A program made the position numbers and the translations under genes. From assembly GCA_964016885.1 (NCBI GenBank), contig OZ024747.1, forward strand, positions 84,568,001-84,632,000: a stretch of 64,000 nt of DNA. Reading direction: 5' to 3'. Of this stretch, positions 3,181 to 11,239 are shown piece by piece (the stretch's first letter is position 1; every line of letters begins with the position of its first letter). The notes beneath the pieces are model-generated. The model made no database searches. It saw only the letters and a list, made by a program, of their open reading frames with translations, and was not told the origin of the DNA. The DNA is from Eledone cirrhosa. Its lineage: Eukaryota.

Positions 3181-3480
3181 ATCAAAGTGTATCCAAGCCA
3201 CAGGAGTTTTGCAGTTCAAACTAGAAGCCCATGGTTATGTTAAATGACACCCAATAGTGGGATCAAACCTGAGACCTCATGATTGTGACAGGAACTTCTT
3301 AACCACTTGGTCATGACTGTATCCACATACATACATATATGCATTGTAGGGTAACAGCTTGGCTGTATTGCTGTTCTTGTCAACCCTACTGAGGAAATAC
3401 CAAAACTACATGCTAGGCTCTGCAGAAGAAAGAAATGCTAATAATGTCACTTCACCTTTTTGATTGATTACCTTAAAATG

Positions 3481-3780
3481 TGTAGCGGTTGTCTCCCTTG
3501 TTGTGACTCACAACCCCAATAGATTAATAACATCTAGACAGGAAGTAGAACCCTTTCTGTAACTTCTGGCAGAGCCCTATAAAACGAATAGCCTTCGGCT
3601 CTCTCCCTCTCATTTGCGTCTCGCGTTTGCCTGGCAATCAAAACGGTAACTACTAACTTTGCTTCATTCTTTCATCTATTTCATTGACATGTCAACTATA
3701 CTGTTAGATTGTTAATTAAATATTATACACACAAACCATGTCTCTTTGTTACATTCATACACCGCTAGTTATTCGCTATA
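3481..3780 (+). mobile_element. LTR (300 bp) of a Gypsy-type retrotransposon
   Basis: Starts TGTAGCG and ends CGCTATA (6/7 inverted match). Internal TATA-like ctataaaa (~3577) and attaaa (~3715). Followed after 1 nt by a PBS. No gag/pol is detectable downstream. Confidence 0.7.
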
Positions 3781-3781
3781 T

Positions 3782-3887
3782 TGGTGACCCCGACGTGATA
3801 CGAACACGCAGCCGTTCATCACCATAAGTGGTGACCCCGACGTGATACGAACACGCAACCGTTCATTGCTATAAGTGGTCACCCCGA
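3782..3887 (+). repeat. Tandem array (47-bp period) of tRNA-Trp primer-binding sites: two 32-nt copies plus one truncated copy
   Basis: TGGTGACCCCGACGTGAT at 3782 and 3829, TGGTCACCCCGA at 3876. Complementary to the conserved eukaryotic tRNA-Trp 3' end including CCA. Confidence 0.85.
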
Positions 3888-4304
3888 AAAAAGAAAAAAA
3901 TAGCAGAATCTGGCGTTGTGTGAGTAACATTACGAATACACAGCAAATTTATTGACAAACTATGAAAATACTCAGTAAAAGAAACGAACACACCACGCAC
4001 ATGTGAAATTTTCGCACAGACAGACTTTTTCTCTCACGCATCAACTAACTGTCGCATTTCACGATATATATATATGTTTCTCGTTTCTTACAACGAACAC
4101 TTTCAAAACAAAACAAAAAAAGAAAAAGAAATTTGATATTCTTTAAAAAACATTTCAACAGGAACATTTATTTTCAATGAATCATTGCCTTTTTTTTTCA
4201 TCGTTCAAGTTTTTTTTTTTTCCAAAGTTCACACCAATAATTATGCCGAGTGAAGCCTTTCTTTTTCATCATTGTCACTTTCACACTTGCACTATCATTT
4301 TCTC

Positions 4305-5215
4305 GACCAGGTATGCAGATACTATAGCATCCAAATTCAAAGAACTTCCTGAGCAAACTGAGGATGTTGAGACTTGGTGTGGTGTTGGATAGCAGGAAAA
4401 CCCTTGGTTCAATCAACAGGTCAGATGCCATCTGAGCATAGGAGGCTTACAAAGCTTGGCTTGAAAATAAGTCCTCCTTCTTGCGCTTGCGGTACAAGCA
4501 GGCACGGAGTGTCACAGCAGAGACAGTATAGGCGTCCAAAGTTAAGACATGGGAGGACTTTGGGGTTAAGCTAGAATCAGATTTCAGATCATCAAATAAA
4601 GTGTTCTGGCAGATCATCTGCTTTGTAATAAGAAGCCCTCCTCCACACCTGCTATTAAGAACGTGTCTGGGGTTCTCCTCACTTCAGAGAGGTGCATCCT
4701 CGCGAGGCAGAGAGAATATTTTGTTGATCTCCTAAACCCAATGACAACAGCATCTTCTGATACACACGGTGTGCATCTGGGAGCGATGACTAATCTCTCA
4801 GAGGCCGAGGTCATAAGAGCCATTATAGAACTCAAATGTGGCAAGGCTGCAGAGGAGGATAAAAATCAGTCTGAGATTTTAAAAGCCTTAAATAGAGGTG
4901 TTCTCTGGCTGATTTGTGTTAGGTCTATGTTAAGTGTCTGGCAAAGAGATGTAGGGAAATTGTAGAGTCCAAGCTAGCTGAGGAACAGTGTGGTTTTCGT
5001 CATGGACGCAGCCCAGCCTACCAAATATTCACATTTCGACAGGTCTTTGAGAAATCGGGGGAGTACTGCAAAGATATGTATTCTTGCTTTTGAAGACCTC
5101 GAAAAAGCATATGACAGCAATCCAGGGGATCTGCTGTGAAAGGTACTGCAGGAGTATGGGATTGATGGTCAGCTTCTTGTTGCGCTGATGTCTTTATACA
5201 AATGCCAGAGTATGT
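4305..5215 (+). mobile_element. RTE-clade LINE ORF2 remnant with frameshifts and internal deletions
   Basis: Across frames: SGVLLTSERCILARQREYFVDLLNP; EAEVIRAIIELKCGKAAEED; EEQCGFRHGRS..YQIFTFRQVFEK; DLEKAY...KVLQEYGIDGQLL. Confidence 0.85.
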
Positions 5216-7931: not shown

Positions 7932-8879
7932 AAAATCCAAGATAGCATTATTTGGGAAGAGGGAGGGGTGGCGAGGGACTCGTGTGAAGGACTCCTACTC
8001 AATTTGGAGTTTAATTAGTTCAGAGCTTATAGTAAATTTGGTTGTTGGGTTAATTTAGTTTATATTACCACTTTAATTATATAGATAATGCCTTCAGAAA
8101 AAACATGTATACCATAACATTACATTTATTTTTACCTGTTGATCTTAGAATGTATACAAGTTGTTTATTTACAGTTGTATAAAAAGAAATATAATAATAC
8201 AATGCCTATAGAACGAAAGCACAAACAAATTACATATGTATGTCAAAAATGTAAAATCCTGAACAAAAATTATAAAGGAAAGAAAGAAGAGGGGGGGGGG
8301 GGGCAATTTACCATCAAGTGCGACAAGTGGCAACACCTCACACCTTGGGCGCTAATTGTACACTTTCAGGCTACTATGATAAATGTAAGGGTGGTGGAAT
8401 GGCAACATTGCTAGGCTGTCAGACAAAATGTTTTTGCAGCATTTAGCTACAGCTCTTTATGTTCTGAATTCAAATCTCACTGAGGTCAACTTTGCCTTTC
8501 GTCCTTCCAAGGTTGATAAATTAATGTGAGAACCCACTGATGAGGAACATATGAGTGTAGGTCTCCAGTAGGAAAGTGATATTGGTGATCATCAAGGTGA
8601 GAGCGAGATTTGAAGTGCTGGAGAAGTTTGTTAATTACCTTTAGAGATTTTGCAATTGCATGTGACAAGAAAATTATAAAATAGCACTCTGACTGCATCA
8701 CATTAAAAACGAAAGATTTTAGTTTAATACTGCAAATTTTTGTGATGTGTCTATTAATAAATATCCCAAACATATTTGAATTGACAAATTTAATTGAAAT
8801 TTAGTAATATTGATTTTTATTTCATTTCTTTCAGGGAAAAACGTGTGTATTTGTATTTCTTGCGGTATGAAACATTATT

Positions 8880-10001
8880 ATGGAAGTTGACTCAGCAAGC
8901 CACGAAGGTGGTGGCTTGATTATCTCAGATATCCGTGACACCACCCTGGAGTCCTCAGCTCTTGATTGTACCCTTAACTTACAAAAAGGAAACAATTCTG
9001 AAATGTTAATTGCTAACCAATGTCCTGATGAAGAAACAGAAACTATTATTTCATCTGATGGTGTCACTGATGAAAATACTGTAATACTAGAAGGGTGTAT
9101 GGACTTTAACCAGCCATCTGATGATGTTGTGTCCCAACAAACAGTAATTGAATCTGGTTACACAGAACTAGATACGGCTTGGCATATGCAGATGGTTGCA
9201 AATGGTGACATAGACACCACTGGTCTTGTTACTGATGTCAAAACAGAAAACATACAGACAGTGGGTGACTTGGACTTGGGAGATGAATGGCATATGCAAA
9301 TTCAACTGATTAGCTTGGTATCTGATTCTGAAGTAAAGGTTGAAAACGAAGAAACAGTGACTGCTTCTGGTGAACCTGCAGATAAAGAAAGCCTTGTTGA
9401 AGCTGTTGATAATTCTTTGAGGGTTCATGAAATGCTTAATTCCACTGAATCAAATATTATTCTTATTCAGAAGGACATTGAAACTGAAGAGAATTGCATT
9501 CCTCTAGAGGTTGTCTCAGCCGATGGCTATGGGAACACATACCTCGATGTTGGTGTACAAACTATTGGGGAAGAGTATACAGTCACCGAGGAAGTATGCA
9601 GTTCCGATGAGAAAGAAGTGGTAAAAATTGTTTCAAGTGTACCCAAAAAATATGCTGTGACTTCAGACACATGCTCGATATGTGGCATGAAGTTCCCTAA
9701 TCGGTCTGCCTGTCAACGTCATATGATTGGTGTGCACGAAGAAGCAAAACATCAATGCAGCAAGTGTAAAAAGACCTTCTTTCGGTTATACTCTCTAAAG
9801 CTGCACATTAAGAAAAAGCACAATGGTGAAGGGCTGTTTTTCTGCGACAAATGTAAATACTGTTTTATATGCAAGTACTACTTTGATCAGCACCGGAAGA
9901 GAAACTGCACGCCTGTTCATTGTAGAGAATGTGGACGAGGCTTAGGCAATCTCATACAACTACATAATCACAGGCGATGGGTTCATAAACTCAAAGTGTG
10001 A
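8880..10001 (+). CDS. C2H2 zinc-finger protein, 373 aa (long acidic N-terminus, four C-terminal fingers); whole CDS in one exon (8835-10052)
   Basis: Longest ORF. Fingers CSIC..H..H, CSKC..H..H, CDKC..H..C (C2HC variant), CREC..H..H. Acceptor tttctttcag|G at 8834/8835, donor CAG|gtaagt at 10052/10053, start context attATGG. Confidence 0.93.
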   Translation: MEVDSASHEGGGLIISDIRDTTLESSALDCTLNLQKGNNSEMLIANQCPDEETETIISSDGVTDENTVILEGCMDFNQPSDDVVSQQTVIESGYTELDTAWHMQMVANGDIDTTGLVTDVKTENIQTVGDLDLGDEWHMQIQLISLVSDSEVKVENEETVTASGEPADKESLVEAVDNSLRVHEMLNSTESNIILIQKDIETEENCIPLEVVSADGYGNTYLDVGVQTIGEEYTVTEEVCSSDEKEVVKIVSSVPKKYAVTSDTCSICGMKFPNRSACQRHMIGVHEEAKHQCSKCKKTFFRLYSLKLHIKKKHNGEGLFFCDKCKYCFICKYYFDQHRKRNCTPVHCRECGRGLGNLIQLHNHRRWVHKLKV

Positions 10002-10493: not shown

Positions 10494-11239
10494 TGCACGG
10501 CTCAGAAAAACCTCTTTCTTTGAGCTATTTAATTGTAAGAGACTATTTTGAGTTTCTAACTCAATATATACCTTTGATATATATACATATATAAATTTTT
10601 TTTTTTTTTTTTTTTAATGACCATGCCATTAAGGTTGTGAATGGCTTGTATGGTTATTAATTAACATCTTGTACCACACGAAACCACATTAGCAAGACAT
10701 TCTTGAAAAGTACAAAACACTATTACTGCATTATATTAAAAATTAAAGTATTACTATAATACTGCAATTGTTCAAATTTGAATCATCAAACCCATTAAAT
10801 ATTTTCGTTAGAAAATGTTAAGAGTCAAGAGATACTCCCTTTGGGGGTCTCAGAATATGCAATCTTTGTGCATCCATCCCATGCCTCCCAAGACAGGTTG
10901 CAGGCCCCTCTACTTAAGGCCTGAAAGCATCCCTTGTTAACCTGCATGAAGGACAATGCTTTTGTTTTTGTCCCACTCACTATATTGCAGTTTCAGTGGT
11001 CTTATTCGTGCCAGTCACCAATCTGGTACTTTGTCAATCCTGCGAAAACTAAGCTTTTTTAGAGGCAGCCTTTATTCACACTGTCATAGCCATGTCACTG
11101 GGCTGTGAGAGTTTCTTTGGGAGCTACAGGTGTCACTCATTGCTCCATCTCCGCTAGTAGTATACCACCGTTGGTCCAGGGTTGTTTGTTCATCTGGCAG
11201 TTGCCTGTTTATATCGCTGTCACCTGCAACCCGTTCTCT

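What the first reader, a model, noticed from the sequence alone, without database searches (positions are those of the whole stretch)
3768..3887. LTR followed by an array of over-long tRNA-Trp PBS copies that seems to record RT read-through of m1A58
Seen: 32 nt complementary to tRNA-Trp (CCA end back to about position 45) at 3782-3813 and 3829-3860, plus a stub at 3876. The 15-nt spacers (gttcatcaccataag, gttcattgctataag) resemble the LTR tip (gttattcgctata). Both copies read GTTCGTATC in tRNA sense instead of GTTCGAATC, a mismatch exactly at invariant A58. They differ at position 47 (GGCTGCG vs GGTTGCG). Known: plus-strand synthesis normally stops at m1A58 to give an 18-nt PBS, RTs misincorporate opposite m1A, and tRNA-Trp priming is typical of CsRn1-lineage Gypsy elements. 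Inference: repeated read-through and aberrant strand transfer add [LTR tip + tRNA copy] units, leaving a DNA record of modified primer tRNAs, possibly from different isodecoders. The array could also act as a multi-site target or decoy for 3' tRNA fragments.
Basis: partly seen in the sequence, partly recalled or inferred. Interest (0 to 1): 0.75.

Follow-up and report, generated by a model that had tools for sequence, protein, structure and literature searches.

The report
Inherited over-copy of primer tRNA
A gene-less jumping element carries two tandem copies of an over-long match to its primer tRNA, a unit shared by about 500 relatives that was likely copied once past the tRNA's normal stop and later duplicated, while dozens of separate over-copies elsewhere in this genome likely record where the host tRNA is chemically modified.

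Summary
The array is real and placed as stated. It lies behind the 5' LTR of a non-autonomous CsRn1-like Gypsy family (F1). The unit is inherited, not re-made: 520 F1 units carry the T58-type base, 8 the C58 type, none the correct A58 before the family spacer (one aberrant copy excepted); all end at the same base. About 10 loci have several units, best explained by recombination over tip/PBS homology. The stub is the original 12-nt PBS. The founding event is well supported: 39 one-off over-copies from 22 LTR groups run 26-50 nt into tRNA-Trp, 5 are followed by a copy of their own LTR tip, mismatches gather at positions 58 (9 of 38) and 37 (3 of 7), and the 7 longest stop just before G26. Caveat: 2 of 83 host tRNA-Trp gene copies have T58, so the window's base could come from a gene; C58/G58 cannot. 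The scan noted this family before on other DNA of this genome (e1-10321918).

The parts
3477..3480 (+). 4 bases before the LTR, candidate left target-site duplication; partner lost with the 3' end
   Evidence: 4-bp TSDs seen in 4 of 4 two-ended family copies examined
3481..3780 (+). 5' LTR of non-autonomous family F1, ends TGT...ATA
   Evidence: about 95% identical to nearest sampled relatives
3782..3813 (+). unit 1: 32-nt complement of tRNA-Trp positions 76-45, T58 type, C47 type
3814..3828 (+). spacer 1: junction bases plus LTR-tip copy, ending like the family's last spacer (2-nt gap), unlike the inner spacers of the 9 other multi-unit loci
3829..3860 (+). unit 2: same 32-nt unit, T58 type, T47 type (6 such units found in the family)
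3861..3875 (+). spacer 2: junction bases plus LTR-tip copy
3876..3887 (+). 12-nt stub: likely the element's original short PBS, one mismatch here, intact in basal copies
   Evidence: PMC2582038 section 6
3888..4305 (+). start of the F1 non-coding internal region; family similarity ends at 4305 and no 3' LTR is in the window

Best explanation
This is the 5' end of a gene-less CsRn1-like Gypsy element whose family likely gained one [32-nt tRNA-Trp copy + LTR tip] unit in a single ancestral reverse-transcription accident, and whose second unit here likely arose later by recombination between existing family copies. Steps: (1, shown) related tRNA-Trp-primed families have an 11-12-nt PBS, and fresh plus-strand tRNA copies seen on F1 LTRs end at 18 nt. 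(2, inferred from Ty1/Ty3) such tRNA-tailed plus strands are normally dead ends and the PBS is mostly inherited from the element RNA. (3, inferred, with 5 one-off parallels shown) RT sometimes runs past position 58; the tail then re-anneals on the LTR tip of the minus strand and copies tip, old PBS and interior, leaving LTR-long PBS-tip-old PBS. (4, inferred) the founder's T58 is most likely an m1A58 misreading (about 0.65; copy of a T58 gene about 0.2; later point mutation about 0.15). (5, shown) the unit is then copied as template in about 500 insertions. (6, inferred) units multiply by template switching over tip/spacer or stub/PBS homology, and by priming at a downstream site, which moves a unit into the LTR. 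No function is needed, though the long site may tolerate later over-copies.
For: Family census: T58-type 520 (515 + 5), C58-type 8, A58 and G58 types 0, transversions at 47 0; correct A58 is 29 of 38 in one-off events, so re-copying would restore it (1 of 529 with L163; p about 1e-39). 21 of 28 5' junctions in the unselected sample carry a PBS with the same two mismatches in the first unit, so even the first 18 nt are mostly not re-copied, as for Ty1/Ty3 (PMC5371799 section 2.2). Fresh 18-nt tRNA-type copies on F1 LTRs in L269, L271-L274 (a selected set). Multi-unit loci: 10 junction matches in 8 loci plus window and L002; L006's first three of four units share a private change; L043's 3' LTR carries a unit and a 4-bp TSD. 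Founding mechanism: tip re-copy after the tRNA tail in 5 of 39 one-offs against 0.6% in the control, two with an exact 4-bp TSD (L130, L140), and the same layout founding family F3. Position 58: 9 of 38 mismatched, 8 transversions, against 12 of 300 and 0 transversions at control sites; the 3 C58 transversions have no gene source (p 0.0013). Family F2 (36 copies, CHCC gag) is likewise fixed for A58 and never shows the majority C47.
Against: All 6 T47-type F1 units also have a tRNA-type PBS against 10 of the first 100 C47 units (p 5e-6) and are scattered on the LTR tree (6 rows, 6 changes, no shuffle run), which fits occasional re-copying from a T47 tRNA. In F3, 2 of 5 copies differ at 58 and 47 together, and a two-copy family has G58 and T58 types. 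One F1-interior element (L163) has A58 and a 26-nt copy. Two host gene copies have T58; one fits three T58 over-copies (L183, L195, L196) apart from CpG-type changes. Mismatches at 58 are concentrated in one LTR family (5 of 9 in groups 1 and 22). The published m1A-A signature is low in C (PMC4787781 section 27), whereas C58 is 3 of 9 here; the enzyme differs. No unit-less F1 ancestor was found, and no RNA or modification data were available.
Confidence: 0.75

Rival explanations
1. Low-rate re-recording: because F1 already has a long complementary site, later read-through products anneal in register and overwrite a unit, so unit 2 (T47) is a fresh copy of a different isodecoder with the same m1A58 misreading.
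For: 6 of 6 T47 units have a tRNA-type PBS; both window units have a tRNA-type PBS although near relatives do not; F3 co-variation at 58 and 47; one LTR family's one-offs are mostly misread at 58, so an enzyme with a T58 bias is possible.
Against: 0 of 528 pattern-matched F1 units have A58, 0 have a transversion at 47, 4 of 8 C58-type units keep the two-mismatch PBS, and F2 shows no C47 in 36 copies. T47 units also occur in basal lineages, so inheritance plus recombination suffices.
Confidence: 0.17
2. The T58 base is not a modification record: it was copied faithfully from a rare T58 tRNA-Trp gene (which would lack the stop and be read through more often) or arose as a point mutation on the family stem.
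For: 2 of 83 gene-like copies have T58; F1 has fixed other PBS changes.
Against: Neither T58 gene equals the unit (each differs at 57 or 49) and both carry further stem or loop changes; the one family-wide difference in 14 extension bases falls on 58; C58, G58 and C37 in other over-copies have no gene source.
Confidence: 0.3
3. The long site and its multiplication are selected: a giant primer over-extension sequence, a stronger tRNA anchor, or a 3'-tRF target/decoy.
For: Three families (F1, F2, F3) expanded with a long site; F1 and F2 end at the same position 45; a similar 32-nt-plus-second-PBS layout occurs in two metagenome records (L235, L246); lentiviruses keep a short over-extension sequence (PMC13191261 section 10).
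Against: Multi-unit loci are about 10 of more than 500 and never form a clade (10 rows, 10 changes); most copies carry two PBS mismatches; many families do well with 11-18-nt sites.
Confidence: 0.2

Closest known systems
CsRn1 clade of Ty3/Gypsy elements (PwRn1, AgCR1-14; PMC2582038, section 6 read whole plus passages)
   Same: tRNA-Trp PBS of about 12 nt, 4-bp TSD, LTR ends TGT...ATA or AAA; CHCC gag signature in the sister families with long PBS.
   Different: F1 has no coding region; the section read describes no PBS extended to 32-50 nt and no tandem tip-PBS units.
Dead-end plus-strand strong-stop DNA of yeast Ty1/Ty3 (PMC5371799, section 2.2 read)
   Same: Plus strand copies the primer tRNA beyond what is used, and the primer sequence is largely not inherited.
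   Different: Here such products were rescued, integrated in the germ line and in three cases founded families; copies reach tRNA position 27.
Retroviral m1A58 strong stop, read-through products and the lentiviral primer over-extension sequence (PMC13191261 section 10 read; PMC8599865 and PMC11251516 passages)
   Same: Main stop before 58, minor read-through with a further stop near 37; genome sequence next to the PBS that matches over-copied tRNA.
   Different: Those texts say long over-copies cannot complete transfer or integrate; the over-extension sequence reaches only to about position 55, against 45-37 here; no evidence here that the extension is selected.
RT misincorporation signatures used in tRNA sequencing (PMC4787781, one section and passages read)
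   Same: Arrest plus mismatch at m1A58.
   Different: Recorded in genomic DNA by a natural RT; base spectrum differs (C58 not rare).

Membership tests
CsRn1 clade (non-autonomous derivative, F1) | tRNA-Trp PBS | tested here: met
CsRn1 clade (non-autonomous derivative, F1) | 4-bp TSD | tested here: met
   4 of 4 two-ended F1 copies examined; not testable on the window's own truncated copy
CsRn1 clade (non-autonomous derivative, F1) | LTR ends TGT...AAA/ATA and a PPT before the 3' LTR | tested here: met
   PMC2582038 section 6
CsRn1 clade (non-autonomous derivative, F1) | Gag with CX2HX9CX3C (CHCC) | tested here: not met
   F1 example L012 has no ORF over 100 aa and no Pfam hit above cut-off in 8 of 11 ORFs scanned; the motif is present in F2 loci. 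F1 works like, and is likely mobilised by, a CsRn1 element but cannot be filed by its own proteins
CsRn1 clade (non-autonomous derivative, F1) | RT phylogeny within the clade | not tested
   F1 has no RT; F2 has RVT_1 and RVP but no tree with named members was built
Lentiviral-type primer over-extension sequence | Genome sequence 3' of the PBS complementary to tRNA beyond 58 | tested here: met
Lentiviral-type primer over-extension sequence | Rescues strand transfer of over-extended plus strands | tested here: inconclusive
   F1 and F2 show no restoration of majority tRNA bases; F3 and T47 units hint at it
m1A58 misincorporation record | No host gene carries the mismatched base | tested here: inconclusive
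   T58 in 2 of 83 gene-like copies, neither identical to the unit; C58 and G58 in 0 of 83
m1A58 misincorporation record | Excess mismatch and arrest at 58 in independent copies | tested here: met
m1A58 misincorporation record | Host tRNA-Trp chemically carries m1A58 (and m1G37, m2,2G26) | not testable with these tools
   modifications recalled from general tRNA knowledge; PMC13191261 states m1A58 for primer tRNA-Trp in general
3'-tRF target or decoy | Element RNA expressed and bound by tRF-Trp | not testable with these tools
   no small-RNA data could be laid

The most novel reading that the evidence does not exclude
Animal genome assemblies hold a readable germ-line map of primer-tRNA chemistry: independent over-copies made by CsRn1-type reverse transcriptases stop or err at 58, 37, 26 and perhaps 47, differ by isodecoder and enzyme, and now and then found whole families whose 32-40-nt site acts as a giant over-extension sequence that can be overwritten by new tRNA copies.
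Probability: 0.5. Interest if true: 0.72.

Novelty: new variant of a known kind. Interest (0 to 1): 0.55.

Why it matters
Read-through of the primer tRNA is described as a dead end. Here it produced integrated copies from 22 LTR groups and founded three families, one with about 500 copies. If the mismatch and stop pattern is confirmed by tRNA sequencing, tRNA modification sites and RT error spectra could be read from assemblies of species with no RNA data, and the strand-transfer route of a metazoan Gypsy clade becomes testable from fossils. The two-unit array itself adds little: it is one of about ten duplications of an inherited unit.

Tried and rejected
Rfam scan of 3300-4400: six weak matches, all below gathering score. 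ARAGORN: no tRNA gene in the window. RNA folding of 3740-3900: z -0.36, no special stability, though each unit can form a small hairpin between PBS end and spacer. Viral contigs pattern scan: 0. Sequencing runs: no RNA holder listed; laying DNA runs could not phase the array. Search for F1's autonomous partner by blastn of its interior against 16 other loci: no hit. Pfam on two ORFs at 4600-5090: nothing. Paper searches that found no description of long or tandem PBS units in LTR retrotransposons or of modification signatures in genomic PBS copies: (listings only; open-access library; supplements not read, and Additional File 1 of PMC2582038, a PBS alignment image, was not seen and may show longer sites). 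PMC44914 and PMC1170264 were not held. Rejected: stub as decayed long unit; unit as part of the normal LTR (3' and solo LTRs end at the tip in L012, L026, L030, L036, L263, L264); CpG decay as cause of the 58 change (not a CpG transition); treating F2, F3 or F1 copies as independent events (collapsed before counting).

Full report
Observation. The window holds an LTR at 3481-3780, two 32-nt complements of the tRNA-Trp 3' end (3782-3813, 3829-3860), two 15-nt spacers and a 12-nt stub at 3876-3887. The 18-mer occurs twice, never in 100 shuffles. Against host gene L073 the only differences are T58 in both units and T47 in unit 2. Family similarity ends at 4305 and no 3' LTR follows in the window.

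Host tRNA genes. A pattern ending before position 58 gave 71 matches. I read the two main clusters in full plus five single genes: 83 gene-like copies, A58 81 and T58 2; C47 74 and T47 7; G57 27 and A57 55; G37 81 and T37 2; G26 79. The two T58 copies carry further changes, and each differs from the window unit at one other position, 57 or 49. So T58 is not absent from the host, but no gene read equals the unit; C58 and G58 occur in none.

The family (F1). The element is a 1.4-2 kb two-LTR element with PPT, 4-bp TSD (4 of 4 examined) and ends TGT...ATA; one example has no ORF over 100 aa and no Pfam hit above cut-off. Nearly every 5' LTR read is followed by one unit and the stub. Genome-wide exact-pattern counts: T58 type 515 + 5, C58 type 8, A58 and G58 types 0, transversions at 47 0. 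These counts include segmental duplicates (one tandem array) and miss more diverged copies. One element with F1 interior has a 26-nt A58 copy and its own spacer (L163). In the sample not chosen by PBS, 21 of 28 junctions have the same two mismatches in the first PBS. The 8 C58-type units read as A>G changes on the element strand; A>G runs in L002 and L272 suggest RNA editing as one possible source (inference).

The arrays. Ten junction matches in 8 loci, plus the window and L002, give 10 multi-unit loci. They are scattered on an LTR tree of 65 rows (10 rows, 10 changes; quick tree, many weak branches, no shuffle). In 9 the inner spacer ends like the LTR tip; in the window it ends like the family's last spacer, which points to a switch over stub/PBS homology. 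L006's first three units share a private change. L043's 3' LTR includes a unit and is closed by a 4-bp TSD, so priming occurred at a downstream site; its 5' units match the tRNA at positions where the 3' unit does not, while 58 is unchanged, so correction covers the first 18 nt only. An independent read-through would seldom repeat both the T58 base (5 of 38) and the 32-nt end (1 of 38).

How the unit arose. Many unrelated LTR families here use tRNA-Trp (138 matches, first 100 listed). In one family read without bias after the PBS, 8 of 25 copies have an 11-nt PBS, about 6 an 18-nt form, the rest are one-off tails; PMC2582038 (section 6 read) gives a 12-nt PBS for the clade. So the stub is likely F1's original PBS. 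A search for over-long copies outside F1 gave 88 matches, all read: 36 are family F2, 5 family F3, 4 F1, two pairs, and 39 one-offs from 22 LTR groups. The pattern fixed positions 20-26 and barred G at 33, so short and gapped events are missed; some one-offs share an interior family, so 39 is an upper bound. In 5 of 39 the tail is followed by a copy of the element's own LTR tip (control 0.6%); L130 and L140 end in an exact 4-bp TSD. F3 has the same tail-plus-tip layout before its gag-like start. Others land inverted on the LTR or inside the interior. This fits the Ty1/Ty3 scheme in which the tRNA-tailed plus strand is a dead end and the PBS is not inherited (PMC5371799 section 2.2), with rare rescue by re-annealing.

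The modification signal. In 38 one-offs passing 58: correct 29, T58 5, C58 3, G58 1; controls 12 of 300 mismatched, none a transversion. Without the two most affected LTR groups 3 of 32 transversions remain (p 0.0008). Counting only bases with no gene source, 3 transversions give p 0.0013, and 4 of 38 against all control mismatches gives p 0.09. Position 37: 3 of 7 (T37 twice, which 2 genes also have; C37 once). Position 47: 3 transversions in 34. Ends: 16 of 23 reaching 38 nt stop at 38-42; all 7 reaching 43 stop at 48-50, just before G26; none goes further (ends uncertain by 1-3 nt). That 37, 26 and 47 carry m1G, m2,2G and D is recalled, not measured. Mismatches at 58 favour A57 copies (7 of 9 against 6 of 29), which the A57/T58 gene explains only in part.

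Other records. A metagenome scan gave 19 matches: 2 tRNA-Glu genes, 1 69-nt tRNA-Trp copy that passes position 26, and 16 over-copies of 28-50 nt (A58 12, G58 3, C58 1); two related records have 32 nt, a 12-nt spacer and a second PBS. Their LTR nature and host tRNA genes were not checked, so they show recurrence of the layout only.

All 6 T47 units have a tRNA-type PBS, F3 varies at 58 and 47 together, and a two-copy family differs at 58. Occasional overwriting of a long site by a new tRNA copy is therefore not excluded, but it is rare in F1 and unseen in F2 (36 of 36 A58, 0 C47).

Comparison and verdict. Retroviral texts treat long over-copies as unable to integrate and describe only a short over-extension sequence (PMC13191261 section 10 read; PMC8599865 passages). 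My searches found no paper on such units; subscription literature is not covered. I stated my reading before looking at earlier notes; e1-10321918 reached the same view on other DNA of this genome, and e1-9536341 gave the Ty3 review as a lead. These are not independent support. Verdict: real feature, new variant of known retroelement chemistry; the array is an ordinary duplication, the genome-wide record is the part worth following. Interest 0.55.

Noticed in passing
L291:9788-9859 (G000:C4, tRNA-Trp cluster): A tRNA-Trp gene copy whose four changes include positions 32, 37 and 58, all typical modification sites (recalled); chance or conversion by tRNA cDNA is untested.
   Followed up: partly
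L036, L269-L272: Fold-back products: a fresh 18-nt tRNA copy, twice on another family's LTR, lands in reverse on the F1 spacer, which is complementary to the PBS end; suggests co-packaging of F1 with other families.
   Followed up: partly
L272 and L002, around the PBS unit: Runs of A>G changes on the element strand that look like A-to-I editing of element RNA.
   Followed up: no
L259, L261 (family): An 11-nt PBS is followed twice by a short stretch resembling the complement of the tRNA T-loop; a possible over-extension acceptor.
   Followed up: no
L014: Three-LTR element in which a unit joins directly to a PPT and the next LTR.
   Followed up: partly
L273, L274: F1 LTR pairs (99.7-100% identical) enclosing unrelated captured sequence directly after an 18-nt tRNA copy.
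   Followed up: no
L277 (G000:C14:21.37-21.40 Mb): F1 copy repeated in a tandem array at about 5.7-kb spacing.
   Followed up: partly
window 4306-5200: Sequence that truncates the element looks like a decayed LINE reverse transcriptase region (recalled resemblance; no Pfam hit); part of it is repeated near 11236.
   Followed up: partly
window 8871-10001 (+): 376-aa open frame with C2H2 zinc fingers about 4.5 kb downstream (Pfam hits just below cut-off).
   Followed up: partly
G000:C4:353.39-353.49 Mb: Large tandem array of tRNA-Trp genes, mostly of the A57 type.
   Followed up: partly
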